Shown piece after piece: positions 5,731 through 51,093 of a stretch of DNA of 52,832 nucleotides (position 1 is its first letter; every line of letters begins with the position of its first letter). Made by a program: the position numbers and the translations under genes. Under the pieces are notes generated by a model. That model did no database searches and was not told the DNA's origin. It saw only the letters and a list, made by a program, of their open reading frames with translations. The stretch covers positions 1 through 52,832 of the forward strand of contig CAXTPN010000002.1 in the NCBI GenBank assembly GCA_964246125.1, given 5' to 3'. The stretch is from an uncultured Acidobacteriaceae bacterium (GTDB lineage: Bacteria; Acidobacteriota; Terriglobia; Terriglobales; Acidobacteriaceae).

Positions 5731-5803
5731 TGTCATTTTACGCAGACCTTGACAGTCTCTGCCATACGGGAGGACTATAGACATCGCGACGACTAGTTGT
5801 CAA
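5731..5803. promoter_or_regulatory. Tandem operator (copy 1) with promoter, between the divergent GH43 and GH1 genes
   Basis: TGTCA-TTTTA-CGCAG (5731-5745) and TGACA-GTCTC-TGCCA (5750-5764). Minus-strand TTGACA (5803-5798)-N18-TATAGT (5779-5774). Possible plus-strand TTGACA (5749-5754)-N18-GACTAT. Confidence 0.75.
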
Positions 5804-6015
5804 TGAGAAGTTCTAAGGTTCTCCAGATGTGTCCTGATTGGCAAGATCAACTCGGTGGCAAAGGAACTTTGTAAGCGACGCCCTGGAGATATTGGCGCGG
5901 CCGCTCGGCGGAGCCCTCGATCGCATATGGCACTCGGCAGAACATGAACTTCGATGATCCCAGCTATCGCCGTTACACAATAAGTCGTGGGTAAACTCGC
6001 GAAGGGAAAGATCAA

Positions 6016-7362
6016 ATGAAAGAGTTGACACGCAGAACGCTACTCGGCGGCGGTGCACTTTTGGCTGGCGACTTGCTCGTGCGCAAGGCCGTGGGAGCAC
6101 CGCAGCAGCACCTCTTTCCAGACGGATTCCTGTGGGGAGCCTCGACTGCCGGTCACCAGATTGAAGGCAACGATCTTGGTTCGGATCTATGGGTGCTCGA
6201 AAACGTTCAACCAACGATCTATGTGGAACGGTCCGGCGACGCCGACGACAGCTACAACCGCTATGAGGAAGACATTACGCTATTGCGATCGTTCGGTCTG
6301 AACGCGTACCGCTTCTCCATTGAATGGTCGCGCATCGAACCGACAAAAGACAAATTCTCCGTAGCGGAGCTTGATCACTATAAACGCATGATCGAGTTCT
6401 GCCGCGGACGGGGCGTCGCCCCGTCGGTTACGTTTCATCACAATGCCTCGCCAGCATGGTTCGCTGCGGAAGGTGGGTGGCTCTCAAAAGACTCCTCTGC
6501 ATTGTTTGGAAGGTACTGTGACAAGGCGGCTCGCGCGCTCGCGGATCAGATGGAAGTCGCCTTCACTATCAATGAACCACAGGCATCAGAGGTGATCATA
6601 TGGATTCCGGGGGCTGCGGAATATCTTGGCAGCTGGACGACCTCGCCCGATTCGGGCTTTCGAAAGATGAAAGCTGCCGGCGCTAAAGCGGTCGGCTCGT
6701 CGGTCTTTGAGCCGATGTTCCTGACCGATCCGAGGATTGCGACTCCGAATATCATCAATGCGCATCACGAAGCATTTGCCGCGATCAAGGCAGTGCGTGG
6801 GAACCTTCCGACGGGCGTCCCACTTGCTGTGCCAGATTTTCAGGGTGTCGGGCCTTCAAACCGGCTCGAAGAAGCTCGCAAATTTATCTTTGGTCCATGG
6901 ATAGAAGCGGCAAAGAAGTCGGGAGACTTCGTCGGCGTGCAGAATTACACCCGTTATAGGGTCGATGCAAGGGGACCCCAGTTGCCGCCCAAAGACGTTC
7001 CAATGCCCACCGGTGGAGAGGAAATCTACCCGCAGAGTCTCGCGAACGCTGTGACCTACATCCACCACGCGACAGGTAAGCCAATCATCGTCAGTGAGCA
7101 TGGCATCAACACGACGAATGACCCCCAACGCGTCAAGCTCATCGATGATGCGTTGATTCACCTTCGCAATGCTATTGCTGCAGGGGTGCCAGTCCTTGGT
7201 TACTACCATTGGTCGCTTCTCGACAACTTCGAATGGTTCTCGGGCTACACTCCGAAGTTTGGCCTGGTAGCCGTTGATCGCAACAACTTCGTTCGCACTC
7301 CAAAGCCGAGTGCGTTCCATCTCGGGTCCATTGCTAGAACCAATGGGTCCAATCTGACCTGA
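6016..7362 (+). CDS. GH1 family beta-glycosidase, Tat-exported
   Basis: TRRTLL Tat motif; FPDGFLWGASTAGHQIEG; acid/base motif INEP; nucleophile motif VSEHG; WSLLDNFEW. Confidence 0.92.
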   Translation: MKELTRRTLLGGGALLAGDLLVRKAVGAPQQHLFPDGFLWGASTAGHQIEGNDLGSDLWVLENVQPTIYVERSGDADDSYNRYEEDITLLRSFGLNAYRFSIEWSRIEPTKDKFSVAELDHYKRMIEFCRGRGVAPSVTFHHNASPAWFAAEGGWLSKDSSALFGRYCDKAARALADQMEVAFTINEPQASEVIIWIPGAAEYLGSWTTSPDSGFRKMKAAGAKAVGSSVFEPMFLTDPRIATPNIINAHHEAFAAIKAVRGNLPTGVPLAVPDFQGVGPSNRLEEARKFIFGPWIEAAKKSGDFVGVQNYTRYRVDARGPQLPPKDVPMPTGGEEIYPQSLANAVTYIHHATGKPIIVSEHGINTTNDPQRVKLIDDALIHLRNAIAAGVPVLGYYHWSLLDNFEWFSGYTPKFGLVAVDRNNFVRTPKPSAFHLGSIARTNGSNLT

Positions 7363-7746
7363 TGTCCAGGCCACCCGAGTCTCTGCAGCGATTGGAAGCT
7401 ATTCTCTGTGCTCAAGATCCCATGGCAATGGGAATGCTTGGATAATGCCTCACTGTCTTTGCGAAGCTTGCGTTGGCCCACCGGTTTCAGGCACTGGCGT
7501 GGCTTACTGCCCCTTGTCCAGCAGTGAAGTTCGCAAAGCGCATTCGCAATACTCGTATGCCTTTACGCGGCAGGATTTCATCAAGAGGTAAACAATTGCG
7601 GAGAGATCTAGAATGGAACTGGTTTTAACCACTTCAGGATCTTACCGCCAAGTCACTCATCAACTTCAAGGTATGAGAGTTGCTTGATTCTGATGCGTCC
7701 TCAGCAACCAGCAATGCCGGCTGAAATGAAGCGATACTCAACGGCT

Positions 7747-9159
7747 TCATTCTTGTCTCAGATGGTGGTAGACATCCCATCCCATGTAGGTTCCGAGTGC
7801 CTCCGCGACTGGAGCAGCGCAATGGCTTCCGTTCATCGCGGCATGGTGTTCGAAACCGTTCCGGCAGATCACCTGCATGAGCTTCTGAAGCTGTGGAATG
7901 CTGGCAACCGCCCGGGTGCCGAAGGTGTTCAAGGGATCGTCCGTAAACAGACCTTCGCCGACGTAGGCGCGAATCTTTCCGCCCAGATCGTCCGTGCTGA
8001 CGCGCCCGAACGTGAGCGGCCCGGCCGGCGTGCGGCCTTCGAGCGCGCCCACGGTGTTCTGTTCGCCGAGCACGGTTCCGAGGATGGGCGCCGTGCCGAT
8101 GCGAATGTCGGGCAGGAAATCCTTCGCCCAATTGCCGCAGTGAAACAGAACGCACTTATCCGGATCGTTGCCGTAATTGTTGTTCCAGTCCACGAGGGCT
8201 GAGGGCTTCTGCGAGGCAAGCTGCAAGGCATACATGCTGACGACGCCCGCGATATCGACCTCGCAGGCGGAGGGCAGCATCTGCTCGGACATCATGGACA
8301 TGATGGTGCACACGTTGACCCCAAAGTTCTTCTGCATGGACGACCAGCACTGAATCGCAGTTGCGGTCAGGCCCAGGTCGCGCATCCAGTCGTCGACCAC
8401 GAGCGCGAACTTCGCCATCTTGACCAGGCTTTCGCTGGGTGCGGCGGAGGCGTCCGCATAGCTGCGAATCTGATCGATGCGCTGCTTCACCCGGACGTCG
8501 CTATCGGAGATCAAGGCGGTCGAACCAAATACCTCCGAGAGGTCGATCGTGTTGACGGAGATACCGGCGGCCTCAAAGAGCTTCTCGCTGAAGCGAGTGG
8601 TGTTGAAGGCATTCGGCCTCGCTCCGACAGCACCGAGACGCACACGCCTGAGCCCGCGGGTGACCCGGCAGGTGGCTAGGAAGTTCAGGAGGTCCTCGCG
8701 GAATCGCGGGTCCGGAATGCCGACCGTGTGGTCGCGCGTCAGGGTGTACTTGAATCCGTATTGACGAAGATTGTTGCAGGCGGAGATCTTGCCGCAGAAG
8801 GCATCGCGGCGGCGCTCGAGCCCGAACGCGTCGAGGTCATCCGGGCAGGCCTGGACCAGGATGGGCACGTTCAGCTCGGAGAGGCGAATGGCATCCGAGA
8901 GCGCTTTTTCGTCGCCAAAGTTCGGCAGGCATACCAGGATGCCTTCAATGCTTGCGCGTTGATTGCGGAAGAGCTCGCCGCACTTGACTGCGTCGGCCCA
9001 GCTCTGCACGTCCCCGAGCTTCGTCTCCGCACTCGTCAGCCACACGGGCGTTATCTCCAGCTCCGCAAAGAGCCCGGTGAGCTGCTTGCGTGCTTCTGCG
9101 ATGAGCGAGTCGGGGAAGAAGTCGCGATTGCCGAGGATGACGCCGAGGGGACTAGGCAT
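7747..9159 (-). CDS. L-fucose/L-arabinose isomerase family protein (candidate apiose isomerase)
   Basis: GNRDFFP, LPNFGDE, RRDAFCGKIS, AIQCW, ACEVD, FHCGN and NGFEHH motifs; last gene of the transketolase/kinase/ABC operon. Confidence 0.8.
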   Translation of the reverse strand: MPSPLGVILGNRDFFPDSLIAEARKQLTGLFAELEITPVWLTSAETKLGDVQSWADAVKCGELFRNQRASIEGILVCLPNFGDEKALSDAIRLSELNVPILVQACPDDLDAFGLERRRDAFCGKISACNNLRQYGFKYTLTRDHTVGIPDPRFREDLLNFLATCRVTRGLRRVRLGAVGARPNAFNTTRFSEKLFEAAGISVNTIDLSEVFGSTALISDSDVRVKQRIDQIRSYADASAAPSESLVKMAKFALVVDDWMRDLGLTATAIQCWSSMQKNFGVNVCTIMSMMSEQMLPSACEVDIAGVVSMYALQLASQKPSALVDWNNNYGNDPDKCVLFHCGNWAKDFLPDIRIGTAPILGTVLGEQNTVGALEGRTPAGPLTFGRVSTDDLGGKIRAYVGEGLFTDDPLNTFGTRAVASIPQLQKLMQVICRNGFEHHAAMNGSHCAAPVAEALGTYMGWDVYHHLRQE

Positions 9160-9173
9160 GTTGGTGGCCTCTC

Positions 9174-10106
9174 TTATCTGATCTTTTCAAAGTCACGGTA
9201 TTCGTCGGCATTCCCGCGTGTCACGAGGTCGCAGGGGATGATCTGCTTCTCAGGCTGACCCGTGGATCCGGTCTTCAGGAAACGGTCCGCCTGATCGACC
9301 GCCATGCGCGAGATGACGACAGCCGGCTGCAAGGTCGTGGCCTGCATCTCGCCGGCGCGGATGGCGCTGACGGCATCCGGCGTGCCGTCGAAGCCGGTGA
9401 TGATGATGTGCGGCCGGCCGGAAGATTTGACCGCGGCCGCGGCCCCGAGCGCCATGGTGTCGTTGCCGGCAATGATGCCCACCAGGGCGGTATGCGCCTG
9501 CAGCATCGTCTCGGTTTTCTGGAAGGCCTCCGACTGCGACCAGTTGGCCGATTGCGCGGAGACGAGTTTCAGGCCGGGCATCTTGTCGAGCACCGCATGG
9601 AAGCCGCTGGTGCGGATCTGCGCGTTGGTATCCGATTCGCGGCCGAGTAGCTCGGCATAATCGCCAGTGCCGCTGGTGGCACGGGCAAACTCATCGGCGA
9701 CGATGCGAGCGCCCTGGTTGTTGTCTGCGATGATCTGCGCTTTGGCGACGCCTAAGGTCTGGATCTCGCGATCGATGAGGAAGACCGCAATGCCGGCACG
9801 TGTGGCGCGTCGCACCGCCGAGATGGATGATTCCGAACCCGCGTTGTCGAGGATGATCGCCTTCGCCCCGCTGGCGATGGCGGTGTCGATCAGGTTGTCC
9901 TGCCGGTAGGCATCGTCGTCGTGTGCGTCGACGCGGGTACGATAGCCGAGCTGTTGCGCGCGCATGCTTGCAGCATCCGCTTCGGCCTTGAAGTAAGGAT
10001 TGTCCTGCGATGGGACGATGATGGCGATCAGCGGCTTCGCAAGATCGCTCCGGTGGCATCCGGACAAGGGGAGAGCGGCCAACAGCAGCGCCGGCAGGAG
10101 CTTCAT
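9174..10106 (-). CDS. Sugar ABC transporter substrate-binding lipoprotein (apiose/erythritol/ribose-like subfamily)
   Basis: Lipobox LSGC; PSQDNPYFKAEAD, AIILDNAG, FLIDREI, LLGRESDTNA and ANWSQ..GNDTMALGA, which I recognise from D-apiose-binding proteins. Confidence 0.85.
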   Translation of the reverse strand: MKLLPALLLAALPLSGCHRSDLAKPLIAIIVPSQDNPYFKAEADAASMRAQQLGYRTRVDAHDDDAYRQDNLIDTAIASGAKAIILDNAGSESSISAVRRATRAGIAVFLIDREIQTLGVAKAQIIADNNQGARIVADEFARATSGTGDYAELLGRESDTNAQIRTSGFHAVLDKMPGLKLVSAQSANWSQSEAFQKTETMLQAHTALVGIIAGNDTMALGAAAAVKSSGRPHIIITGFDGTPDAVSAIRAGEMQATTLQPAVVISRMAVDQADRFLKTGSTGQPEKQIIPCDLVTRGNADEYRDFEKIR

Positions 10107-11173
10107 ACGCCGGCCTCGGGTGTGGAGCGCAGCAAGAGCGGCAGGAACTTCGCCTGCAGACGAGACTGGAGCTGATCGATCGCCACCGCGAGTACGATCA
10201 CGACGCCCTTGATGACGATCTGCCAGAACTCAGAGACGCCGAGCATGACCAGGCCATCGGTCAGGACACCGATGACGAAGGCTCCGATGAGCGATCCCGA
10301 GACCGAGCCGCGACCGCCCATCAGCGAGGTGCCGCCAAGCACCACGGCAGCGATGGCGTTGAGCTCGAACGTCTCGCCTGTGGCTGGATGTGCCGCCTCC
10401 AGTTGCGAGGCGATGATCAGGCCGACCAGCGCCGCACACAGCGCGGAGAAGAGGTAGGTGTAGAGCTTCACGCGGGGCACAACGATGCCGGCGAGCCGGG
10501 CTCCACGTTCGTTGCCGCCAATCGCGTAGACATGCCGTCCGAAGGGCGTCTTGGCAGCGACAAAGGCAGCGATGGCGAACAGAGCGAGCATCATCCAAAC
10601 GGGTGTGGGCAGATGAAGCAGGAAGCTCTGGCCGATCGAGGCGAATCCGGGAGAAGTGGCGGCCAGATTGGGGAACGTCTTGCCGTTGGACATCAGCAAC
10701 GCCGTGCCGCGGGCAATGTACAGTGTGCCCAGCGTGGCGATGAACGGGGCCACGCCGGCGCGCGCGACGAGCCAGCCATTGAGCGCACCGATCAGCAGGC
10801 AGACAAGCAGCGTCCCAAGCATCGCGGAGGCAAGACCTGGGTGAGATGTGTGGCCGCCCATGGTGATGCCGCGTGTCAGGATGTACCCCGCTACCATGCC
10901 GCCAAGCCCTGCCACGGATCCGACAGAGAGATCGATGCCTCCGGTCAGGATGACGAACGTCATGCCGATCGCGAGGATCGCATTGATGGCCACGTGCTTG
11001 GACAGGATCGAGAGATTGGCCACTGTAAGGAAGCTGGGAGAGAGCACGGAAAAGACGATCAGCAGCAGCAGTAGAACGAGAATCGCACGGCCGCGCAGCA
11101 GGATCAGCGCCATGCGCGCTCCGCTGCTGGCGAGACGTTCGGAAGAGGAGAGCGTGTTGGAAACCGAGGTCAT
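10103..11173 (-). CDS. Sugar ABC transporter permease (RbsC-like)
   Basis: GMTFVILTGGIDLSVGS, FIATLG, YAIGGNE and ELNAIAAVVLGGTSL motifs; highly hydrophobic. Confidence 0.93.
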   Translation of the reverse strand: MTSVSNTLSSSERLASSGARMALILLRGRAILVLLLLLIVFSVLSPSFLTVANLSILSKHVAINAILAIGMTFVILTGGIDLSVGSVAGLGGMVAGYILTRGITMGGHTSHPGLASAMLGTLLVCLLIGALNGWLVARAGVAPFIATLGTLYIARGTALLMSNGKTFPNLAATSPGFASIGQSFLLHLPTPVWMMLALFAIAAFVAAKTPFGRHVYAIGGNERGARLAGIVVPRVKLYTYLFSALCAALVGLIIASQLEAAHPATGETFELNAIAAVVLGGTSLMGGRGSVSGSLIGAFVIGVLTDGLVMLGVSEFWQIVIKGVVIVLAVAIDQLQSRLQAKFLPLLLRSTPEAGV

Positions 11174-12693
11174 ATCGCGATTCCTGTCGCTGTAACGGTT
11201 GGGCTGGCGGCCGCGAAGAGAGCTTCATCGGTCAGTTGATGGTGCGCAAACTCGGCAGCGACACTGCCCTGGCAGAGCACGAGAGCGCGATCGGCGAGAG
11301 TGCGGGTCTCTTCGATCTCGGACGAGGTAAATACGATGGCGAGCCCGTCTGCGGCAAGCTTGCGCAGAATGCGATAGATCTCCGCTTTGGCACCGGCGTC
11401 GACGCCGCGGGTGGGCTCATCGAGAAGAAGGACCGTTGGATGGCGCATCAGGCAGCGCGCGATCAGCACCTTCTGCTGGTTGCCCCCGGAGAGCGCAGCC
11501 ACCGGGAGTTCGAGATCGCGGGCAGCGATATTCAAACTCGTTGCAAGTTGCTTTACGCGTTCCGTCTCGCGAGCACGCGACAGCATAAAGCCGGTGCTGG
11601 ATGCGAGCGCGACATTCTCGCGAATCGACAGTTCCGGGATGAGGCCATCGCGTTGGCGATCTTCCGGCACCAGCACCACGCCAGCGCGCATCGTATCCCC
11701 GACTGATTTGAGATCGACCCGCTTGCCCCGCACGAGCACAGTGCCGGAGAGCGGCCTGCGACTGCCCGCAAGGGTCTCCATCAGCTCGGTGCGGCCGGCG
11801 CCAAGCAAGCCATAGATGCCCAGTACCTCACCCTTGTGGACGGTGAAGGAGATGTCGTGCAGCGCTGCCTGCGCGGCTTCGCCCCCTGCCGAGGTGCCTA
11901 GGTGCAATCGTTCGACGGTCAGGACCGGTTCGGTGGAGATGGTCGCGCGTGCCGCCATATCGGTTGTGTCGGCGCGGCCGGACATACGCTCGACGATCCA
12001 CTGACGCGTCACCTGTGACCGCGGCGCCTCGCCAACGACACGGCCTGATCGCAGCACGGTGAAGTAGTCCCCGAGGTGCAGCAATTCATGCAGCCGATGG
12101 GAGATGTAAACGATGGACACGCCGGATCGTTTGAGGTCGCCAACCACCTCGAAGAGAGCCTCAGCTTCATTCTTCGAGAGCGCGGAGGTTGGTTCGTCGA
12201 GAATAAGAATCTTCGCTCCGTGCGCGATCGTGCGAGCTACCTCGACCACCTGCCGACAGCCTAAGGACAGCCGCGAGGTCGGCCCGGTGACGCGCATCGG
12301 CATGTGCAGGCGACCGAGCGCAAGCTGGCTGCGGCTGTCTTCGTTTCTGCGATCGACCATGATCCCCGTGGTGAGTTCGCGTCCGGCGAAGATGTTCTCG
12401 CTGATGTCCAGATTCGGCATCAGGCTAAGCTCCTGGTGCACAATGCTGATGCCATGCGCCGCCGCATCGCGCGGGCTGCGCAGCGATATCGCCTGGTGTT
12501 CGAGAACGATGGTGCCTTCATCGCAGGTCTCGACACCCGACAGGATACGCATCAAGGTCGACTTGCCTGCACCATTCTCGCCGATCAGCACATTCACCGC
12601 GCCGCGATAGAGCTTGAAGTCAACGTGATCCAGGGCGACATTGCCTGGATATCGTTTCAAGACGCCCGTAGCCTGCAGGATGATCTCGCTCAT
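11170..12693 (-). CDS. Sugar ABC transporter ATP-binding protein (RbsA-like, two ABC domains)
   Basis: GENGAGKST, LILDEPT, LSGGNQQK, LLLDEPTRGVD. The start at 12693 overlaps the kinase stop (ATGA). Confidence 0.93.
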   Translation of the reverse strand: MSEIILQATGVLKRYPGNVALDHVDFKLYRGAVNVLIGENGAGKSTLMRILSGVETCDEGTIVLEHQAISLRSPRDAAAHGISIVHQELSLMPNLDISENIFAGRELTTGIMVDRRNEDSRSQLALGRLHMPMRVTGPTSRLSLGCRQVVEVARTIAHGAKILILDEPTSALSKNEAEALFEVVGDLKRSGVSIVYISHRLHELLHLGDYFTVLRSGRVVGEAPRSQVTRQWIVERMSGRADTTDMAARATISTEPVLTVERLHLGTSAGGEAAQAALHDISFTVHKGEVLGIYGLLGAGRTELMETLAGSRRPLSGTVLVRGKRVDLKSVGDTMRAGVVLVPEDRQRDGLIPELSIRENVALASSTGFMLSRARETERVKQLATSLNIAARDLELPVAALSGGNQQKVLIARCLMRHPTVLLLDEPTRGVDAGAKAEIYRILRKLAADGLAIVFTSSEIEETRTLADRALVLCQGSVAAEFAHHQLTDEALFAAASPTVTATGIAI

Positions 12694-14162
12694 GCCGCAG
12701 GCCTCTGCAGCCGTGCTTGCTTCACTGCGTGCTGCCAACGCTGGTAGCGACTTGCGGGCGATGCCTGCGGTGTGAAGACTTGTGTCTCCTGCGGCAGCGA
12801 CTGCAGATCGTCAATCTGCTTCCACCAACGGAGCGCCAGACCACCCAGCCACGCGGCACCCAGGGCAGACATATCTTCACAGGCGGAGCGACGTACCGGA
12901 AGCTGCAGCAGGTCGGCCTGGAACTGCATCAGGGAGGCGTTGCGCGTGGCGCCTCCGTCCACATACAGCGCGGGCAACGGCACGCCCGCAGCATCCTGCA
13001 TGGCGTAGAACACATCCGCGACCTGGAAGGCGATGCTTTCGACCGCAGCGCGAGCCATGTGCGCCCTGGTGCTGGTGCGGCTAAGCCCCGTGAGGGTGCC
13101 GCGTGCTCCAGAGTCCCAGTGCGGCGCGCCGAGGCCAACCATCGCCGGCACGAAGTACACTCCTTCGGCATCAGGCACAGACTCTGCAAGCGCGACGGCA
13201 TCGGCGGTGGGATCGGGCAGACCGAGGAATTCGCCCACCCACTGCACGGCAGATCCAGCCATGGTGATATTGCCCTCGAGTGCATATTGCACACCCGCGC
13301 TCGTAGACCAAGCGATGGTGCGCGCAAGATGTTCTTGAGCGCTCGGGATCGCAGGGGTCAGGGTCATCAGCGAAGAGCCTGTGCCGTAGGTGGCCTTCAC
13401 CGTTCCAGGACGATAGCTGCCATGGCCTGCCAACGCGGCATGGGAATCGCCGATGACCGTGACGATCGGAATGCCGGCAAGCTCCGGAATGGCCGAGACC
13501 GTTCCGAACACTCCCGAGGACGGAAGCAAGCGTGGCATCGCTGCGCGCGGCAGCGCAAACAGAGCGAGCAGGTCGTCATCCCAGTCGAGCGATGACAGGT
13601 TCAGGAGCCCGGTGCGCGATGCATTGGAAGGGTCGGTCGCATGAACCGTGCCACTGGTCAGCTTATAGACAAGCCAACTATCCACCGTGCCCAGGCACAA
13701 CTCTCCCGCGGCTGCGAGCACAGGCAACGTGTCCTTCTCCTCTTCGAACAGCCACGCCCACTTGCTGGCGGAGATCAAAGGATCGAGCGGAAGTCCTGTC
13801 TTCTCTCGAATCCTCTCGCCATGGGAGGACAGACGCCTGCAGAGATCCTCGCTGCGCCGGCATTGCCAGCTAACTGCGTTCGCCAGAGGAACACCGAGCC
13901 GCCGGTTCCAGGCGACGGCGGTCTCGCGCTGATTGGAGATGCTGATCCCGTCAATGGCCGATCCAGCGTGCTCGACACATTGCGCGATCACGTCAACGAC
14001 CGAATGCCAAAGCTTCATGGGATCCTGTTCGACGAACCCGGGACGCGGCGTGTGCAGCAACACCGGCGCGACGGCGCGAAAGACCGGCCGCCCATCGCGT
14101 CCGACAAGCAGCGCCTTCGTGTTGGTCGTTCCCTGGTCGATCGCAAGGATGAGGCCCGGCAT
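12690..14162 (-). CDS. FGGY family carbohydrate kinase (glycerol kinase-like; candidate apulose kinase AplK)
   Basis: AIDQGTTNTKA, ISNQRET, SWQCRR, TDPSNASRT, KATYGTGSS, DGGAT. Confidence 0.88.
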   Translation of the reverse strand: MPGLILAIDQGTTNTKALLVGRDGRPVFRAVAPVLLHTPRPGFVEQDPMKLWHSVVDVIAQCVEHAGSAIDGISISNQRETAVAWNRRLGVPLANAVSWQCRRSEDLCRRLSSHGERIREKTGLPLDPLISASKWAWLFEEEKDTLPVLAAAGELCLGTVDSWLVYKLTSGTVHATDPSNASRTGLLNLSSLDWDDDLLALFALPRAAMPRLLPSSGVFGTVSAIPELAGIPIVTVIGDSHAALAGHGSYRPGTVKATYGTGSSLMTLTPAIPSAQEHLARTIAWSTSAGVQYALEGNITMAGSAVQWVGEFLGLPDPTADAVALAESVPDAEGVYFVPAMVGLGAPHWDSGARGTLTGLSRTSTRAHMARAAVESIAFQVADVFYAMQDAAGVPLPALYVDGGATRNASLMQFQADLLQLPVRRSACEDMSALGAAWLGGLALRWWKQIDDLQSLPQETQVFTPQASPASRYQRWQHAVKQARLQRPAA

Positions 14163-14171
14163 CTGTTCTGT

Positions 14172-16158: not shown

Positions 16159-16482
16159 CTATAGGCGTAAGGAGCGGAACGTGTACACGCCTTCGGCGCC
16201 CAAGGGTAGATAGCCATGTACGGAAAGCGTTCGAAGAATTCGGTAGGTTGTTGACTTCGACACACCTGTCAGTTCGGCCACCTCGTTAACGTTCAACGGG
16301 CGATCAGAATTCTCAAGAAGTCGCATGATTTTGATCGCATTGGTGAGAACTGGAATGATGTAATTGGGATGAAGATCGGGTCTGCGCACCTGTGCGATGG
16401 CTGTCCTGCCACCAGCACTTGGGATTCCTACACGGTTGGACTGTTTTCGGCAAACTTCGCTGTTGTGGACAACTGTAGCCAT
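16159..16482 (-). CDS. Small stand-alone IclR-type HTH protein (no effector domain)
   Basis: IPVLTNAIKIMRLL..PLNVNEVAELTGVSKSTTYRILRTLSVHGY matches the IclR winged HTH, and the ORF ends directly after it. Start codon uncertain. Confidence 0.7.
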   Translation of the reverse strand: MATVVHNSEVCRKQSNRVGIPSAGGRTAIAQVRRPDLHPNYIIPVLTNAIKIMRLLENSDRPLNVNEVAELTGVSKSTTYRILRTLSVHGYLPLGAEGVYTFRSLRL

Positions 16483-18501: not shown

Positions 18502-18503
18502 AC

Positions 18504-21279: not shown

Positions 21280-21379
21280 GAGTTCCTTGGCCTTTCGTCC
21301 AGGAATTTCGCCAACCTTTCTTGAATCTCAATAAGTGTGGACCCGTAATGGCGCTCTCCTAGACGTACAGTCACGAAGT

Positions 21380-42977: not shown

Positions 42978-42987
42978 ACGGAGACTT

Positions 42988-44457: not shown

Positions 44458-45045
44458 TCAACCTTCACACAAAAGGCGAGACATGTGTCGCATGACCTCT
44501 TTCACTGCTGCACTCGGTTCCACAGAGACACCATGGTACCAAAGCGAGAGGGCGCTCTGAACGATCATCAACGTCGCGCTGGCATAGATGCGAGGTCTCG
44601 GATCATACGCCGATGAATTCCGTAAACGGGCTGCGAAAGCCTCAGTGAGCTTTTCCTGAATCTCAGCGATTACGGATTGTTGAGCTTGCCTCACGGAAGG
44701 ATGGGTAGAGGAAATATCGATGATCTCTCTCGTTCGAGGTTGGGCGATATTCCAACCGGTAGCCTCCACCGCAGCATGGCGAACAGTATCCAGCGGCGAG
44801 AGCTTGACGGGACATGCCTCTACCGTTTCCACGAGCTTCTTGCCATAACCGATCACGCGATGCGCTAAGAGTTCGTCCCTGGTCGCGAAGTACCGGTAAA
44901 GTGTGCGTGGCGAAACACCGGCCCCTTTGGCCACATCTTCCAGAGTCGTTTCATCGAATCCGTCCCGTGCAAACAGATCAACCGCAGAATCGTATATGGC
45001 ATTCCGGACAAGATCCTGCTTCCGGACGTGAAATGTTGCTTGCAT
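44458..45045 (-). CDS. TetR family regulator, MftR-like
   Basis: RKQDLVRNAIYDSAVDLFARDGFDETTLEDVAKGAGVSPRTLYRYFATRDELL HTH. Confidence 0.9.
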   Translation of the reverse strand: MQATFHVRKQDLVRNAIYDSAVDLFARDGFDETTLEDVAKGAGVSPRTLYRYFATRDELLAHRVIGYGKKLVETVEACPVKLSPLDTVRHAAVEATGWNIAQPRTREIIDISSTHPSVRQAQQSVIAEIQEKLTEAFAARLRNSSAYDPRPRIYASATLMIVQSALSLWYHGVSVEPSAAVKEVMRHMSRLLCEG

Positions 45046-45078: not shown

Positions 45079-45112
45079 TAGGGTACGCTGCCAAGACTAA
45101 CAGACTCTGCCG
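45079..45112 (-). promoter_or_regulatory. Degenerate tandem operator upstream of tetR (possible autoregulation)
   Basis: TAGGG-TACGC-TGCCA and TAACA-GACTC-TGCCG, with right half-sites 19 bp apart as in the other copies. Confidence 0.5.
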
Positions 45113-45269: not shown

Positions 45270-48200
45270 TTAGAACAAGAACTTGGCCGAGAGCTGGAGG
45301 ATACGAGGGTCTCTCACCCCAATGGTTTGGCCGAAGGTGCTCGGCGCATTGAAGTCAGACGCAGGCTGAAGGAAGTTGGGGTGGTTGAAAACGTTAAAGG
45401 CCTCGGCGCGAAGCTGCAGGTGTAGCTTTTCTGTGAAAAGTGCAAAGTTCTTCATGACTGCGGGATCGACATGCACGTAAGCGGGAGCTCTGAGCGAGTT
45501 ACGCTGCTGGTTTCCGTATGTGCCCGGAGTATTGGCCGTAAAAGCCTTGATGTTGAGTGTTCCTCCTACATAAGTTGGGACTCCTGGCACGGTATTGGCG
45601 AGATCGAGCCCTAGACCGGTCTGAGAAGCTCCTGCACCATCCGTCACGCTGAACGGCTGACCGGCGTCTGCGACTACAAGTCCCGTGATCGACCACGACC
45701 CGAGAGCCGTCTGCACAAGCCTGTTGCTTCCCTTCAGGGCGGGAAGATTCCAAACCACTGTCGTCCGTGACGTGAGGTTCTGATCAAAGTCACAACGGCC
45801 GCGACGAGCACCGGGCAAGTAGGCACCATTTGCCACTCGATTGTCACCGAGTCCGGTCGCACCGTAAATTCCCGTGGTAGTCGGAGGAACCGAGCCATCA
45901 TCCAAGCACTTGGACCAATTGAACGCGGACACCAGATCGAGTCCACCTCCCCCGTGGTGACGGAAAGTGAAGTTCAGCCCGTTGTAATTCGCGGTCGAAT
46001 TGCTCACCAAGGTCAGGATTTGCGTGAGTCCTTCGGCTCCGTATGGCCTCGTACCAAGCGCAGTGGGTGTCGCACTGTTGAAGACGGGCAAGTTGGCATC
46101 GTAGCTCTGCGCAACGTGAACACTCTCTGTGCCGATATAGGCTAACTCGATACTGTCGGAACGCGTGAATGCTTGCTGGAGTGATAGTGAGAACTGCTGG
46201 ACATAAGCGGGTCTGAACTTCGGGTCTAGTGCTGAGCCGGAGAGCCCGATAGCCGTGGCATTCGCAAAGCTCACATTTGCAGGTGGCTGATAGCTCGCGT
46301 CTTGAAAGCCCCCCGCAAACGGGTCCGTCTTGCCGTTTGAGGTCCACGGCGAGTCGATATTCTCAAATCCGACTGGTGTAACTGTCAGAAACGAACGCGT
46401 GAAGGGCGGCGCGACGAAGCCGCCTAGGCTCACAAGCTGAAATTGCGTCGAGTAGAGACCGTACCCACCGCGCAACGCGGTATTTCCCTTCGAGTCAAGC
46501 TGATACGCAAAGCCTAACCGAGGCTGAACGATGTTGTACTTCGACGAGGTTCCGCCGCTGCTGCAATTTGGATCTCCGGGGTAAATCAAACCAAGCGGCG
46601 CGTTGGTATAGACCTTCGATTGCTGTCCTGCATTGAAACAGCTGATGTGGCCGTTAGCCGGCGTGTATGGCAGGAAGGGATCCCACCGCAACCCGCCCGT
46701 AAGGGTTAGCCGACTCGTCGCCCGATACTTGTCCTGCGCATAGATGCCGAACAAATGTCCGGTGATGTCCTGGAAGGCGCCATCTCCTTGCAGGAATTCG
46801 TACGGATAACCTTCCTGGAGGTCCGCCAGAGCGTTATTGTCCAGAGCACCGGGCCCAAGATACAGTGTGTGCAAACCAACAAACGCAAATTGTGGATTCT
46901 GCGACCCTACATCATTCTGGGTGTACTTTATGAACCTGAATTCCGTACCGAAATCAAGCTCATGCTTCCCCCCGGAGTGGAGAACATTGAGACTGTAGTC
47001 GTTGGAAGTGGACTTGCTCGTGCCACTGTCCCCACCAGCCGCAAACAGACTTCCGATAGCGTAGAAGGTGGACAGCGTGGGCTGCGCGCCGATCGTTACC
47101 CCCGTAGCCCCTAGTTTTACGAGATTCAGGTTAGACAGGCTTGGGTCGGGTGCGCTAGTTGTTTCTGCACTGATATAGGACGCACGGCCATCGATGACGA
47201 AAGCCCTATGCACCCAGGTATCGCCCACCGCATAAGCATTCCACTTGCCGGCCTGACCCTGTGTTGCAGTCAACAAGTTGAAGCCGCTGGCAGTTTGAGT
47301 GCTAGGAGAGATCGGATTCGAAGCGATGGTTAGACGGTCCGTAAAGTAGCGGGCAAAGATTCGATGAGCGCCAACGGTGAAATCCACCTTGACAACGCCC
47401 TGAGGATCATTCGTCCTAAGCGGCGACGTCGAATTGTAATATTGCAAAAGGCCATTAACCGCAAAGTTCGGTGGCGGGATGTATTTGAATAGATTTGTTG
47501 CAACCTTGCTCAGTGGAACCTGCACTACTGTTCCAGTGGAGATCTGCTTGAATTGACCTTTCTGTTGGTTCTCAGATGGCGTCACCAGTCCGACATTTGC
47601 GTCAATAAGGTTTTGAGCGCGAATGGCCGTCTGTTGGTAGGAGCCAAATACGAAGAGTCTGTTCTTGAGGATAGGTCCGCCTGCGGCAAAGCCATATTGG
47701 TTCCGCTTCAGAGTGTCTGGCGTCGTCGAGAAGTAATTCTGCGCATTCGCGGCGCCGTTCCGGATGAACTCAAACACGGAACCGTGGATGGCGTTTGTCC
47801 CAGATCGCGTAACAATGTTCACCGCCCCCCCAGGTGCAGAGACATAGCGCGCACCGTAGCTACCGGTCACCACAGAGAACTCCTGTGTCGCGTCAGGATT
47901 AGGAAACGGTCCCCCGACTACTGCAAGGGGCTCGACATTTGTCGCCCCATCTAGCGAGAAGTACGTGCCGCCCGGACGTACACCATTGGCAGTAGGGGCA
48001 CTCTCATTGAGCAGGTTAGCGCCCGGAGCTATAGGTACGTTCGCATTCGTCCCTTTTGGGTTTAGGAGTGCGTCCGTAACTCCAGGTGCGGTGTAGACCA
48101 GCGCCGCAGGGTTGCGGCCATTCAGAGGAAGTCCCTCCACCACCGCTTGATCCACTACCGTTTGGATAGTACTGTCGGTGCTGTCAATGGCCGGGGTACC

Positions 48201-48596
48201 ACCCGCGACAGTGATCTCTACGTTAGCCGCCCCGACTTTAAGCGCGACCTGAACAGTTGCCGACTGACCCACAGTGAGCACGATGCCGGTCTGTTCGTAG
48301 CCCTCGAATCCCTCCCTGGTGACCTTCAATGTATATGGGCCGAGAGGTAGAGTCGAAAAACGGAAGAACCCGTCTTGCTTGGTCTGCACGTCTGAAGTGA
48401 AGTTCGTCTCTGTCTGAATCACGATCACTCTTGCGTCGGGAACCACCGCGCCGGTTACGTCTTTGACAGTTCCGTTCAGAGAAGCGGTAGAGCTCTGACC
48501 AAACAGGCGCACGGGTGTCAGCAGGCAGAGGACCATAACGAAAAACGCTGTCGCTGACAACCTGCTCATTGAGCGACCTAAATCATTGTTTAGCAT
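45270..48596 (-). CDS. TonB-dependent receptor (Oar-like, N-terminal carboxypeptidase-regulatory-like domain)
   Basis: GTVKDVTGAVVP, LPLNGRN, VNIVTRSGTN..HGS.FEF.RN, RNQYG..GGPI.K, GLRWD, QPRLGFAY, RAEAFNVFNHPNF and terminal F. AAGGAG before the ATG at 48596. Confidence 0.92.
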   Translation of the reverse strand: MLNNDLGRSMSRLSATAFFVMVLCLLTPVRLFGQSSTASLNGTVKDVTGAVVPDARVIVIQTETNFTSDVQTKQDGFFRFSTLPLGPYTLKVTREGFEGYEQTGIVLTVGQSATVQVALKVGAANVEITVAGGTPAIDSTDSTIQTVVDQAVVEGLPLNGRNPAALVYTAPGVTDALLNPKGTNANVPIAPGANLLNESAPTANGVRPGGTYFSLDGATNVEPLAVVGGPFPNPDATQEFSVVTGSYGARYVSAPGGAVNIVTRSGTNAIHGSVFEFIRNGAANAQNYFSTTPDTLKRNQYGFAAGGPILKNRLFVFGSYQQTAIRAQNLIDANVGLVTPSENQQKGQFKQISTGTVVQVPLSKVATNLFKYIPPPNFAVNGLLQYYNSTSPLRTNDPQGVVKVDFTVGAHRIFARYFTDRLTIASNPISPSTQTASGFNLLTATQGQAGKWNAYAVGDTWVHRAFVIDGRASYISAETTSAPDPSLSNLNLVKLGATGVTIGAQPTLSTFYAIGSLFAAGGDSGTSKSTSNDYSLNVLHSGGKHELDFGTEFRFIKYTQNDVGSQNPQFAFVGLHTLYLGPGALDNNALADLQEGYPYEFLQGDGAFQDITGHLFGIYAQDKYRATSRLTLTGGLRWDPFLPYTPANGHISCFNAGQQSKVYTNAPLGLIYPGDPNCSSGGTSSKYNIVQPRLGFAYQLDSKGNTALRGGYGLYSTQFQLVSLGGFVAPPFTRSFLTVTPVGFENIDSPWTSNGKTDPFAGGFQDASYQPPANVSFANATAIGLSGSALDPKFRPAYVQQFSLSLQQAFTRSDSIELAYIGTESVHVAQSYDANLPVFNSATPTALGTRPYGAEGLTQILTLVSNSTANYNGLNFTFRHHGGGGLDLVSAFNWSKCLDDGSVPPTTTGIYGATGLGDNRVANGAYLPGARRGRCDFDQNLTSRTTVVWNLPALKGSNRLVQTALGSWSITGLVVADAGQPFSVTDGAGASQTGLGLDLANTVPGVPTYVGGTLNIKAFTANTPGTYGNQQRNSLRAPAYVHVDPAVMKNFALFTEKLHLQLRAEAFNVFNHPNFLQPASDFNAPSTFGQTIGVRDPRILQLSAKFLF

Positions 48597-48643
48597 GTTC
48601 TCTCCTTGGCCATCGCCCAAAACCCTGCGGTCTTTATTACTTG

Positions 48644-48717
48644 CGGCAGTCCACGTAGTATTTGACAGTTTCTGCCAGTCAGCGAAGAAGATATTGAGAT
48701 TGGTTATGGATTGTCAA
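48644..48717 (-). promoter_or_regulatory. Tandem operator (copy 5) with promoter, upstream of the TonB-dependent receptor
   Basis: CGGCA-GTCCA-CGTAG (48644-48658) and TGACA-GTTTC-TGCCA (48663-48677). Minus TTGACA (48717-48712)-N18-TATCTT (48693-48688). Confidence 0.82.
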
Positions 48718-49126
48718 GTGTTTTTTTATGCTTCCGTAAAATGCTGCATATCTATGAGAGCGGGGCCTCCTCGCCGGCGCTCTAGCTCTCCGTGTACCTG
48801 TTTCGCACCGGTGGTCGCGTGAGGCATACACAGGTAAGCGCTTAGCGCGCTTGCTGCGAGATCCCCCGGGCACCTACAGCGTCGGCGCTGAGCATACAAT
48901 GTATCCCTCCTGCAGTTCATCAATCAGGATCCCTCGTCTTCCGTCAGCACTCCCGCCACGAGCAAAGCTTTGATTTGATTCGTCGGGTCCGTTTCCGCAC
49001 GCGATTCCACCATGTGAAAACTCGTGTTCCAAGTTGCTCCAGGAAATCATCCAGCCCGCAATTTGAGGCAAAACAGGCGCGGTCGGCTGCCTGAACGGGC
49101 CCTCTCAGTTTTGCTGGTCGCTGCGT

Positions 49127-50779
49127 TCATTTGACTGGAGAAGCAACGCAACTAAAGTGTTCTGCGGAGTTGGTATCTCCAGAGCCGTTGTAGTGGGCCA
49201 CAGCTGGAAAGGGACAGAGCGTACGAGTCAGCGGAGTGCCCTTGATACCAGCTTTTGGATCGGCCCCCAGTGCACCAGTGGCGATGATCCGGTCCGGAGC
49301 GATCCCTGATGTTACCCAGCGATCGAGGGCCATTACGATGTCGTGCTCTGCATCATCGGAGACACCGGCTGGAATGTCGCCGTTGCCGAAGCCCGTCGCC
49401 CCTTGGCCGCCGGCGCAGTGCTGCATTCCAGGAACCATGAATAGCCGGTAGAAAGACTCGATGGAGGCGGAGTCCTTTGCACGCGGGTCAGGATAGGTCC
49501 GGAGAAATGCCTGCACGCGGTTGTAGTAGTCAATGGAATCGCGCGGAGCAACAGCAGAATCGCCCCAGCCGTGATAGTGGATTAGCTTGCCTCCATGATC
49601 ACGGAAACTGCGCAAGTCAGGGCTCCAGCCGTTCAAAATCGCACCAGTCTTCTGCTCCGCCAAGGTCACTTCGCCGTGTAAATCGGCCGTGTGCCAGTCC
49701 CATCGAGGATCCTCATGAACGGCTTGTCCGTAAAAGGTATTCGCGAATCCGTTTTGGAGGTCCCCGAGAATCCAGGCGCTCCAACCAAGAGGGTCAGCCT
49801 CGGAGCCGGGTTCATAACCCGGGTAGATTTGTTCGCCGGTAACGGGATCTTTAGGGCCACCGTAAATCTTCCTCAGAGTGACCAGCTCTTGCTGGGTAAG
49901 GCACTCAGCAGAATCTGCTCCATGGCAAAGCAGAACAGATGGATCGAAGTGGCAGCTCAAAGGATTTTCGATGAGCCCATCTTTGACCCCGTCCAACTCA
50001 TCGCACTGTTTGAGCGCCGTCTTCTGAATAAGAGACAACTTGCCGATAGGAATCTTGCTTTCCGGCGTCGCGTGCACCGCCATTTCATCCCAGAGGAATC
50101 CCGCGATCTGATGCGTCCAATGATTCGCGGGCGCCCCAGCGAGAATGCCGTCGAAGTCTTCGGGATAGCGCTCAGCTTCGACAAACGCCTCACGACCTCC
50201 ATCGGAGCAACCAGAGAAATAGGCTTGACTGTTCGGCTTGCCGTAGTACGTATCGAGAATGGCTTTGGACGCCAAGGCCGTCTCATGTACAGCGCGATAG
50301 CCAAAGTCGACCAGTTTTTCCGGGTGTCCGATCGCGAACGTTGCGTCGGGCGGAATCACAGCTTGAGAAACGTGGCCATCGTCGGTAGCTGAGACCGCGT
50401 ACCCGAGCGTTAGCGGGCGAGTAAGGCTTGCGGATGAGACTACGCCGGCCCAACCACCGTTGCCGAGCTGCATATATTTGCCGTTCCATGCACCAGCGTA
50501 TGGGAGCCACAACAGAAAGTTGATCTCTGAATCGGTCGTGGGACGTGCGGTACCCTCGACTTCGCAGTGGCGTGGAACATTGCCTTGGGGTTGTGAAGAC
50601 TGGCCGGGCGCCTCCGGCGACTTCATCGGACCTGCCTCGACAAAGACGGCAGAGTTGATCGTTACGTGCTTGAGCGCAAGCTTCTTGAGATCCTCACATG
50701 ATTGCTGCGCCCGCACCCCATTCGGCGCAATCCCGAAAAGCACCAACACGAGAGAAATAACACCACCTTGTATGCGCAT
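49127..50779 (-). CDS. Tannase/feruloyl esterase family alpha/beta hydrolase, secreted
   Basis: WNGK..GNGG, TDDGH, YFSGCSDGGRE (CS nucleophile), DFDGILAGAP, CDELDGVKDG, HGWGD, RLFMVPGMQHC, LCPFP. Confidence 0.93.
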   Translation of the reverse strand: MRIQGGVISLVLVLFGIAPNGVRAQQSCEDLKKLALKHVTINSAVFVEAGPMKSPEAPGQSSQPQGNVPRHCEVEGTARPTTDSEINFLLWLPYAGAWNGKYMQLGNGGWAGVVSSASLTRPLTLGYAVSATDDGHVSQAVIPPDATFAIGHPEKLVDFGYRAVHETALASKAILDTYYGKPNSQAYFSGCSDGGREAFVEAERYPEDFDGILAGAPANHWTHQIAGFLWDEMAVHATPESKIPIGKLSLIQKTALKQCDELDGVKDGLIENPLSCHFDPSVLLCHGADSAECLTQQELVTLRKIYGGPKDPVTGEQIYPGYEPGSEADPLGWSAWILGDLQNGFANTFYGQAVHEDPRWDWHTADLHGEVTLAEQKTGAILNGWSPDLRSFRDHGGKLIHYHGWGDSAVAPRDSIDYYNRVQAFLRTYPDPRAKDSASIESFYRLFMVPGMQHCAGGQGATGFGNGDIPAGVSDDAEHDIVMALDRWVTSGIAPDRIIATGALGADPKAGIKGTPLTRTLCPFPAVAHYNGSGDTNSAEHFSCVASPVK

Positions 50780-51018
50780 CCGTTCCTTTCTTGGCTATCC
50801 GCTCAACCGATCGAGGTCGGCCGCAGATGTTCGGAATACAACTGATTTTCAGGAACACAAGGCCCGGCAGCGAGCGAAGTCCACGGTCTCAGCATGACTC
50901 CTCCCGCCGCATGCTTTTCTCGAAGCGGACAACACGCCCATCGACGTGATCGATACCGGTCCCGCATGTTTATGTGCTTCTTATCCATCTCTCACGCCTC
51001 TGCGGTTCCGATTCGCTA

Positions 51019-51093
51019 CGGCAGTCACGGCAAGATTCGACAGTTTATGCCATCAGGTCAGCGAAGTTAACCAAGCTGGTGCAGGCTTGTCAA
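51019..51093 (-). promoter_or_regulatory. Tandem operator (copy 6) with promoter, upstream of the tannase
   Basis: CGGCA-GTCAC-GGCAA (51019-51033) and CGACA-GTTTA-TGCCA (51038-51052). Minus TTGACA (51093-51088)-N18-TAACTT (51069-51064). Confidence 0.75.

What the first reader, a model, noticed from the sequence alone, without database searches (positions are those of the whole stretch)
5731..51093. Island-wide regulon defined by a composite 34-bp tandem operator and a stereotyped promoter
Seen in sequence: six intergenic copies of two 15-bp units exactly 19 bp apart. Unit B is TGACAGTCTCTGCCA (5750), TGACAGTTTCTGCCA (16740, 48663), TGACACATTCTGCCA (29473), CGACAGTTTATGCCA (51038) and, inverted, TGACAGCTTCTGCCA (24571-24557). 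Unit A is TGTCATTTTACGCAG, TGGCATTGGCCGCCG, CGGCAGTCAACGTAG, CGGCAGTCCACGTAG, CGGCAGTCACGGCAA and TGTCAGCATACGCAC. Copies 4 and 5 match at 30 of 34 positions. In five copies a minus-strand TTGACA-N18-TAnnnT promoter ends 7-11 bp before unit B, placing the operator just after the start site. Inference: one repressor, probably two dimers per site, co-controls the GH43/apiosidase-like genes, GH1, the apiose-like operon, GH78 plus efflux, the esterase-DUF1593 cluster, the TonB receptor and the tannase across 45 kb.
Basis: partly seen in the sequence, partly recalled or inferred. Interest (0 to 1): 0.88.

Follow-up and report, generated by a model that had tools for sequence, protein, structure and literature searches.

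The report
TetR repressor sites across glycosidase island
A repeated double DNA site sits on the predicted promoters of many sugar- and ester-cleaving enzyme genes in a likely mobile island, and it matches the published binding site of a repressor family that has a member encoded in the same island, so that repressor likely switches these genes off together until a probably plant-derived compound appears.

Summary
All six 34-bp composites and the five TTGACA-N18-TAnnnT promoters are at the stated places. A matrix built from them finds four more copies on the same contig beyond the window, each with the same promoter layout. A weaker copy lies in front of tetR (45079-45112).

Unit B is a 15-bp near-palindrome, TG[AG]CA-N5-TGCCA. 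It differs by 2-4 bases from the published site of the TetR protein SCO3201 and shares the MftR operator core. The island's TetR (44458-45045) has SCO3201 and MftR as its closest solved structures. 48 of 87 homologue loci carry a perfect box upstream, often with a second box 19 bp away. Composite plus promoter recurs only beside this TetR's relatives.

The likely mechanism is two TetR dimers covering the transcription start of near-consensus promoters, released by a hydrophobic effector that is not yet identified.

Binding, start sites and effector are untested. This is a new regulon of a known kind.

The parts
5731..5764 (+). Composite operator 1 (unit A 5731-5745, unit B 5750-5764), between GH43 and divergent GH1
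5774..5803 (-). Predicted promoter TTGACA-N18-TATAGT towards GH43 and apiosidase-like gene; ends 9 bp from unit B
5749..5778 (+). Predicted divergent promoter towards GH1: -35 TTGACA is the left half of unit B; -10-like GACTAT overlaps the opposite -10 (inferred)
   Evidence: geometry as
16721..16754 (+). Composite operator 2, ahead of a truncated IclR-type HTH gene
16766..16795 (-). Predicted promoter TTGACA-N18-TATCTT; ends 11 bp from unit B
24557..24590 (-). Composite operator 3 (inverted); unit B overlaps the -35 (TTGACA 24572-24567; -10-like GATTAT 24548-24543) of the predicted GH78a-OEP-emrA-emrB promoter
29454..29487 (+). Composite operator 4, ahead of esterase-Sde182/DUF1593-hypothetical-SDR
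29495..29524 (-). Predicted promoter TTGACA-N18-TATCGT; ends 7 bp from unit B
45079..45112 (+). Degenerate tandem copy upstream of tetR (likely autoregulatory); the most conserved block upstream of four close tetR orthologues
44458..45045 (-). TetR-family regulator, 195 aa (Pfam TetR_N and TetR_C_14), closest solved structures SCO3201 and MftR; likely cognate repressor
48644..48677 (+). Composite operator 5, ahead of the TonB-dependent receptor
48688..48717 (-). Predicted promoter TTGACA-N18-TATCTT; ends 10 bp from unit B
51019..51052 (+). Composite operator 6, ahead of the tannase/feruloyl esterase
51064..51093 (-). Predicted promoter TTGACA-N18-TAACTT; ends 11 bp from unit B
2422..5601 (-). 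Predicted target: GH43 and DUF5060/apiosidase-like gene
6016..7362 (+). Predicted target (via divergent promoter): GH1 beta-glucosidase-like; a homologue in L054 also has a tandem box upstream
16159..16497 (-). Truncated IclR-type HTH gene (no effector domain); first gene behind operator 2
7747..15991 (-). tktN-tktC-FGGY-ABC-permease-SBP-isomerase operon; doubtful target, at most by read-through
16903..24508 (-). Predicted target: GH78 rhamnosidase and OEP-EmrA-EmrB-type efflux pump
24954..29299 (-). Predicted target: beta-lactamase-fold esterase, Sde182/DUF1593 protein, hypothetical, SDR
45270..48620 (-). Predicted target: TonB-dependent receptor
49127..50779 (-). Predicted target: tannase/feruloyl esterase family enzyme
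51621..52619 (-). 3-hydroxyacyl-CoA/carnitine dehydrogenase-like gene; predicted last gene of the unit behind the copy at contig position 55726 (beyond the window); neighbour of close tetR orthologues

Best explanation
The 34-bp element is likely a tandem operator for the TetR repressor encoded at 44458-45045, which would hold a set of glycosidase, esterase, uptake and efflux promoters off until a probably plant-derived hydrophobic compound releases it. SHOWN: ten strong copies on the contig (six in the window) plus a weak one before tetR; nine lie 6-11 bp behind a perfect TTGACA-N17/18-TAnnnT; unit B is within 2-4 bases of the SCO3201 site; box and 19-bp tandem recur upstream of this TetR's homologues. 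INFERRED: one dimer binds the strong box B, which covers about +1 to +20 (or the -35 at 24557 and for GH1). A second dimer binds the weaker box A 19 bp away (about 1.8 helical turns), probably helped by the first, and together they block RNA polymerase at otherwise strong promoters. The TetR also damps its own gene through weaker boxes. MOST SPECULATIVE (about 0.5): the effector is the aromatic acid or aglycone freed from an acylated plant glycoside. The receptor would import the glycoside, the esterases and glycosidases would strip it, the cell would eat the sugars, and the EmrAB-type pump would export the hydrophobic remainder.
For: Motif identity: SCO3201 binds TGGCAGATTCTGCCA (PMC7324645, passages) and MftR binds a T-N2-GGCA-N5-TGCC-N2-A palindrome (PMC8728441, passages). 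The six unit B copies are 2-4 mismatches from the SCO3201 site. Protein identity: SCO3201 is the top PDB hit by sequence (E 1.8e-15; profile 6e-23) and by fold. MftR follows it by profile and by fold and ranks fifth by single-sequence search. The recognition helix GVSPRTLYRYF matches SCO3201 GVAPRTFYRYF. None of the other 6 TetR_N hits in the assembly has this helix. Footprinting: 48 of 87 non-redundant homologue loci have a perfect TGRCA-N5-TGYCA within 400 nt upstream (about 0.06 expected by shuffling), and 18 of those 48 have a second box at +-19 bp. Co-variation: Arg at residue 46 goes with C at half-site position 6 in 106 of 114 half-sites, Pro/Ala in 7 of 28. The island protein has Pro46 and its boxes have G in 14 of 20, C in 1 of 20. 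Co-occurrence: composite plus promoter is found in 2 of 401 genomes, and both hits in G340 flank its tetR homologue. Full composites lie next to the 67-89% orthologues in L029, L043, L044 and L045. Receptor, GH3, tannase-like, apiosidase, GH78 and efflux genes recur beside homologues.
Against: No binding, start-site or expression data. The site at tetR's own promoter is weak (10.8 bits against 17-23) and has no TTGACA-type promoter. 14 of the 15 other genomes with a TetR homologue at E<=1e-15 lack the exact composite-plus-promoter pattern, although most carry a box variant. I had seen the G340 sites before writing that pattern, so that test was not blind. Homologues were chosen by a helix pattern and are related, so counts overstate independence. 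In many homologues the second box overlaps a -35 hexamer, which inflates the 19-bp signal. Unit A's inner half (mostly ACGCAG) fits the canonical box poorly. The assembly is 57% complete, so a related trans-acting TetR cannot be excluded. The dehydrogenase neighbour and the MftR precedent could point to an acyl-CoA effector instead. A reversed response to ligand has been proposed for SCO3201 (PMC10087246, passages).
Confidence: 0.8

Rival explanations
1. TetR binds only unit B. Unit A is the site of a second protein, or the conserved ACGCA is a shifted half-site for a staggered dimer (ACGCA-N5-TGACA) rather than part of a side-by-side second box.
For: Unit A's inner half is mostly ACGCAG, with A at column 14 in 8 of 10 copies where the canonical box has C. 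Read as ACGCA it lies exactly 10 bp from unit B's first half-site. Unit A alone is a weak motif.
Against: Unit A's outer half is a TetR half-site (YGDCR) at exactly 19 bp in 10 of 10 copies. Homologues with no other shared regulator show the same strong box, 4 bp, weak box layout, some with three boxes at -106/-87/-68.
Confidence: 0.1
2. Another island regulator (GntR/FCD 40443-41246, LysR beyond the window, or the IclR-type gene) or an unassembled trans-acting factor binds the element.
For: These regulators are on the contig, and the assembly is 57% complete.
Against: The IclR gene is truncated. The GntR divergon has no copy. The box is a published TetR site and travels with TetR homologues. 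In the homologue loci searched, a GntR match appeared once and LysR or the IclR fragment never.
Confidence: 0.05
3. The repeats are copies of one promoter cassette, or a 5'-leader RNA hairpin, with no protein operator role.
For: Three distal copies share nearly identical unit A. Unit B can fold as a short hairpin at the predicted transcript start in several copies. The site at 5731 resembles the one in L045 although it lies between different genes.
Against: Spacers and flanks are near random identity (27-33%) while B is 86%. The inverted copy lies in an untranscribed -35 region. Predicted leader folds share no structure beyond the B hairpin. The motif equals a known protein-binding site.
Confidence: 0.05

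Closest known systems
SCO3201 (TetR/AcrR family, Streptomyces coelicolor) and its site TGGCAGATTCTGCCA
   Same: Top PDB hit by sequence and fold; near-identical recognition helix with Pro at the position matching residue 46; unit B within 2-4 bases of its site; its sites also overlap promoters.
   Different: About 27% overall identity. In the passages read a single 15-bp site is described, not a 19-bp tandem (the 2010 paper that defined the site was not available). Its targets are regulators and lipid genes, not glycosidases. Its effector is unknown and a reversed response has been proposed.
MftR (mycofactocin regulator, TIGR03968) and its operator Omft
   Same: Pfam TetR_C_14 domain above cut-off; same GGCA-N5-TGCC core with 10-bp half-site spacing; repressor released by a hydrophobic ligand.
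   Different: TIGR03968 score 73.9 against cut-off 224.9; no MftC over cut-off in the assembly; one operator at one gene cluster; Arg rather than Pro at the residue-46 position; effector is long-chain acyl-CoA.
TetR repressors that load two or more dimers per operator (QacR, EthR, CprB, TtgR); recalled, CprB seen only in a search listing
   Same: Several dimers on one extended operator over a promoter; control of efflux pumps by hydrophobic ligands.
   Different: Different motifs. As recalled, QacR-type dimers overlap on opposite DNA faces, whereas here the boxes are side by side at a 19-bp period.
Flavonoid-sensing TetR regulons such as Bacillus LmrA/QdoR (recalled, not checked here)
   Same: A TetR links a plant compound to a degrading enzyme and an efflux pump.
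   Different: Unrelated motif, and far fewer promoters; no receptor-glycosidase-esterase set.
Bacterial bidirectional promoters with overlapping -10 elements (10.1101/2020.01.31.928960; part 1 of 2 of the text read)
   Same: At copies with a 9-bp gap, positions 2 and 6 of the two opposite -10 hexamers pair, the arrangement described there for start sites 18 bp apart.
   Different: Here the second promoter's -35 is also the repressor half-site. Start sites are predicted, not mapped.

Membership tests
TetR/AcrR family regulon | N-terminal TetR HTH domain and all-helical C-terminal ligand/dimer domain | tested here: met
   Pfam TetR_N 58 bits (cut-off 24), TetR_C_14 29.9 (cut-off 22.7); nine-helix model, pLDDT 91.7, TM about 0.8 to SCO3201
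TetR/AcrR family regulon | Palindromic operator overlapping target promoters | tested here: met
   15-bp near-palindrome at the predicted start (9 copies) or -35 (1 copy); promoters are predicted from sequence
TetR/AcrR family regulon | Operator upstream of the regulator's own gene | tested here: met
   Weak tandem at 45079-45112, conserved in 4 close orthologues; perfect box upstream of 48 of 87 homologues
TetR/AcrR family regulon | Direct binding of the protein to the operator as a homodimer | not testable with these tools
   needs EMSA or footprinting
TetR/AcrR family regulon | Release from DNA by a small-molecule inducer | not testable with these tools
   effector unknown
SCO3201/MftR-type TetR subgroup (operator core GGCA-N5-TGCC) | Recognition helix of type G[VI]x[PR]R[TS]x[YF]RY[FY] | tested here: met
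   GVSPRTLYRYF against SCO3201 GVAPRTFYRYF and MftR GIARRTLFRYY
SCO3201/MftR-type TetR subgroup (operator core GGCA-N5-TGCC) | Box TG[AG]CA-N5-TG[CT]CA with 10-bp half-site spacing | tested here: met
   9 exact matches on the 70-kb contig against 8 in the other 2.92 Mb; 2-4 mismatches to the SCO3201 site
MftR proper (TIGR03968) | Score over the equivalog cut-off | tested here: not met
   73.9 against 224.9
MftR proper (TIGR03968) | Linked mycofactocin biosynthesis genes | tested here: not met
   none among the contig's ORFs scanned; MftC model under cut-off in the assembly (assembly 57% complete)
MftR proper (TIGR03968) | Long-chain acyl-CoA as effector | not testable with these tools
   needs ITC or competition EMSA
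D-apiose transketolase catabolic operon (recalled) | Split transketolase, FGGY kinase, isomerase and sugar ABC transporter in one operon | tested here: inconclusive
   gene set present and conserved in 12 of 12 loci fetched, but no apiose-specific model matched and no paper was found to check against

The most novel reading that the evidence does not exclude
A mobile Acidobacteriaceae island carries a whole plant-glycoside stripping system (receptor, three tannase-like and two other esterases, many glycosidases, efflux pump) whose eleven or more promoters were all built at near-consensus strength and clamped by one TetR that senses the aglycone or aromatic acid rather than a sugar. The operator doubles as the -35 of bidirectional promoters. 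The wider SCO3201/MftR-type TetR subgroup shares a cooperative 19-bp tandem and a one-residue code (Arg46 reads C, Pro46 relaxes to G) that makes its regulons predictable from sequence.
Probability: 0.35. Interest if true: 0.6.

Novelty: new member of a known kind. Interest (0 to 1): 0.4.

Why it matters
It gives a complete, testable regulator-operator-target set in Acidobacteriaceae, where my five literature searches found no such regulon. Carbohydrate-enzyme clusters are usually run by sugar sensors (own knowledge). A TetR in that role points to a hydrophobic plant compound as the cue, and so offers a route to the substrate of several unknown proteins (PKD-tannase-like family, DUF1593, DUF5060). 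The box-plus-19-bp rule and the residue-46 code could be used to reconstruct regulons for many unannotated TetRs of this subgroup, and the strong clamped promoters are ready parts for a biosensor. The mechanism itself, a TetR repressor on palindromic boxes at promoters, is textbook.

Tried and rejected
Sigma-54 site: rejected by inspection, no GG-N10-GC spacing in unit B (consensus recalled). LysR box: no T-N11-A fit, and the sites lie at or after the start (consensus recalled). GntR and IclR as cognate regulators: see rivals. Copied cassette or RNA leader: spacers diverge.

A first composite pattern with one mismatch found nothing in G401; a looser pattern then found its one site. One search counted two loci (L053, L089) whose upstream was not real; one search repeats the count without such rows (97 examined, 93 with at least 150 nt upstream, 87 non-redundant).

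RNA runs: no RNA holder listed for 44200-52000, so expression was not examined. The protein atlas look-up for the 729-aa hypothetical gave no answer. Its tannase-like nature rests on homologue annotation and weak Pfam scores. The orthologue survey of the isomerase showed it widespread (238 of 401 genomes at E<=1e-100), so it is not tied to this TetR. Earlier-findings look-ups returned nothing. Paper searches for the apiose pathway and for TetR-controlled glycosidase or esterase clusters returned 0 papers; one search returned one unrelated paper. Most subscription papers are not in the library. The 2010 SCO3201 paper is not held. A further candidate ahead of the distal GH3 (C2:59904) is weak (9.4 bits, no promoter) and is not counted. 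No complex prediction was run.


Full report
OBSERVATION. The six composites are at 5731, 16721, 24557 (inverted), 29454, 48644 and 51019: unit A (15 bp), 4 bp, unit B (15 bp). Five have a minus-strand TTGACA-N18-TAnnnT ending 7-11 bp from B. The window is the first 52,832 bp of a 70,482-bp contig (C2) in a 2.99-Mb, 57% complete assembly. A matrix trained on the six copies ranked four unseen copies on C2 (55726, 62129, 63265, 66267; 23.7-30.8 bits) above all other positions in the assembly (best 22.1). Each has the same promoter 6-9 bp from B. All 9 perfect TTGACA-N17-19-TAnnnT sequences on C2 are followed by the box; 0 of 32 elsewhere are. All ten strong boxes are intergenic, although genes and operons cover about 61 of 70 kb in my map (that matrix was trained on these ten). 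Unit A's outer half-site sits at offset 19 in 10 of 10 copies and at no offset from 14-18 or 20-25. Spacers and flanks are 27-33% alike, against 86% for B and 57% for A, so the motif is kept by selection and not by recent copying.

SETTING. Pfam gives ParB at the left end; apiosidase-like, GH43, GH1; a tkt-FGGY-ABC-isomerase operon; an IclR-type HTH remnant; EmrB-EmrA-OEP; two GH78; esterase and Sde182/DUF1593; GH3; a GntR divergon with sugar-acid enzymes; TetR; a TonB-dependent receptor; tannase; a 3-hydroxyacyl dehydrogenase-like gene. Beyond the window come PKD-bearing tannase-like genes, a second esterase, two more GH3, LysR and an integrase next to tRNA-Asn. A 47-bp exact copy of part of that tRNA gene lies on contig C3 without a tRNA gene, as expected for the far end of an integrated element (inference). 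The nearest named relative of the TetR (89%) is in an uncultured Acidobacteriaceae assembly, so the host is likely of that group.

THE BOX IS A KNOWN TetR SITE. Unit B is a near-palindrome, TG[AG]CA-N5-TGCCA. SCO3201 of Streptomyces coelicolor binds TGGCAGATTCTGCCA (PMC7324645, passages). MftR protects a 27-bp operator with core T-N2-GGCA-N5-TGCC-N2-A and is released by long-chain acyl-CoA (PMC8728441, passages). The six B copies differ from the SCO3201 site at 2-4 positions. The TetR at 44458-45045 has SCO3201 as its best PDB match by sequence, by profile and by fold (model pLDDT 91.7). MftR structures follow by profile and by fold. Its recognition helix GVSPRTLYRYF matches SCO3201's GVAPRTFYRYF. 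The six other TetR_N hits in the assembly have different helices. It is not MftR itself: TIGR03968 73.9 against cut-off 224.9, and no MftC over cut-off.

THE BOX TRAVELS WITH THIS TetR. I examined 97 homologue loci from genomes and metagenomes; 93 had at least 150 nt upstream and 87 were non-redundant. 48 of 87 have a perfect TGRCA-N5-TGYCA within 400 nt upstream and 73 of 87 have at least 9 of 10 bases; shuffling predicts about 0.06 perfect. Among the 48, a second box of at least 7/10 lies at +-19 bp in 18. The counts are 0-1 at offsets 18 and 20-28, 6 at 17, 11 at 29, 8 at 31 and 8 at 38; the 14 at offset 10 share a half-site. Part of this signal comes from an overlapping -35 hexamer, and the loci are related. 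In the window a weak tandem lies before tetR (45079-45112) and is the conserved block among four close orthologues. Residue 46 co-varies with half-site position 6: Arg with C in 106 of 114 half-sites, Pro/Ala in 7 of 28. The island protein has Pro46 and its boxes have G in 14 of 20 and C in 1 of 20, like SCO3201. A composite-plus-promoter pattern matched 2 of 401 genomes of the order: the own genome (9 hits) and G340 (2 hits, one on each side of its tetR homologue, before a receptor and a tannase); the reversed control matched none. I had seen the G340 sites before writing the pattern, and 14 of 15 other genomes with a homologue lack this exact pattern. Full composites also lie beside the 67-89% orthologues: before GH78 and receptor (L045), tannase (L044), a receptor remnant (L043) and the PKD-tannase (L029). 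Among the 31 metagenome loci with at least 39% identity (counted by hand; many are short), receptor and GH3 homologues occur in 7 each, PKD-tannase in 5, apiosidase and EmrB in 3 each.

MECHANISM. Shown: anatomy and co-occurrence as above. Inferred: with starts about 7 nt behind the -10, B covers roughly +1 to +20 and A the next 19 bp, so bound TetR would block RNA polymerase at promoters that are otherwise near consensus. At 24557 the left half of B is itself the -35 of the GH78-efflux promoter (TTGACA-N18-GATTAT). At 5731 the same reading gives TTGACA-N18-GACTAT towards GH1. Its -10 overlaps the opposite -10 in the arrangement described for bidirectional promoters (10.1101/2020.01.31.928960, part 1 of 2 read). 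A 9-bp gap produces this overlap, and 5 of 6 copies with a 9-bp gap lie between divergent genes against 0 of 10 with other gaps (only about three are independent, so this is suggestive). Two dimers side by side, 19 bp or about 1.8 turns apart, is the simplest reading. A's inner ACGCA could instead serve a staggered dimer, and the columns do not decide this. The effector is unknown. The recurring neighbours (tannase-family esterases, glycosidases for rhamnose, glucose and apiose, a receptor and an efflux pump) and the usual hydrophobic ligands of TetR proteins (own knowledge) point to an aromatic acid or aglycone from an acylated plant glycoside, at about even odds. An acyl-CoA, as for MftR, is the main alternative. 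A reversed response to ligand has been proposed for SCO3201 (PMC10087246, passages).

LIMITS OF THE REGULON. The copy at 16721 faces an IclR-type HTH that stops before any effector domain. tktN starts about 770 bp after the predicted start and has its own promoter-like TGTACA-N18-TATAGT. In 12 other genomes the orthologous operon has no perfect box within 1.4 kb upstream (one has 9/10 at -790). So the 'apiose-like' operon is at most an indirect target, and its apiose role rests on recalled gene content (one search found no paper). GH78b, GH3a and the GntR divergon have no intergenic site. The island shows decay (truncated or split genes), so some sites may now control remnants.

NOVELTY. Regulator family, box and logic are known. 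I found no description of this regulon, of a 19-bp tandem for this subgroup, or of the residue-46 rule in searches. The library lacks most subscription papers, and the 2010 paper that defined the SCO3201 site could not be read. Supplements were not consulted and could hold SCO3201 site lists. Verdict: real, well supported, a new member of a known kind; interest 0.4.

Noticed in passing
L001:16505-17887 (contig C2 68504-69886); window 28-1785; C3:2562-2608: Tyrosine integrase next to tRNA-Asn, a 47-bp exact partial copy of the tRNA gene on contig C3, and a ParB with five paralogues in the assembly: the region is likely part of a tRNA-Asn-integrated mobile element that runs off the contig's left end.
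   Followed up: partly
window 5623-5643: A LacI-like palindrome (GAGTTGAACCGCTTTCAACTC; family resemblance recalled) 22 bp before the GH43 start, with a second minus-strand TTGACA at 5686-5681. It was the only match to that pattern in the assembly. GH43 may have a second, sugar-sensing control.
   Followed up: partly
window 40400-40445: Palindrome-rich AT stretch between the FAD-oxidase operon and gntR (TTGTCATAACA...ATATGTATAC), probably the GntR's own operator (resemblance recalled).
   Followed up: no
window 43755-44180 and L001:10685-11173: An N-terminal GH42-type piece and a C-terminal DUF5597 piece lie 19 kb apart; they look like remnants of a beta-galactosidase-type gene after rearrangement.
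   Followed up: partly
L001:1392-3599 and L001:3925-5168: A PKD-tannase-like gene is interrupted by an in-frame stop (intact 728-aa ORF in L002), and the divergent esterase is split by a frameshift.
   Followed up: partly
window 51125-51624: Frameshifted remnant that looks like an IS5-type transposase end (resemblance recalled; no Pfam hit; one 33% match on C13) between the dehydrogenase gene and the tannase promoter.
   Followed up: partly
L001:8049-10238: 729-aa protein of a large family (289 homologues at E<=1e-60) with weak tannase and PKD matches and no solved relative by sequence; recurs beside TetR homologues. An uncharacterised esterase family worth its own look.
   Followed up: partly
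L145:5313-6389: A fusion of an IclR-type HTH with a periplasmic-binding-type sugar domain lies divergent from the orthologous tkt operon; the window's IclR remnant may derive from such a dedicated regulator.
   Followed up: partly
contig C2 62129, 63265, 66267 (L001): The three distal copies share a nearly identical unit A and also show plus-strand TAnnnT-like hexamers 18 bp after unit B's TGACA, pointing at no recognised gene; possible antisense starts.
   Followed up: no
L002:10001-10584: The 89% tetR orthologue aligns in three frames, either frameshifts or assembly errors.
   Followed up: no
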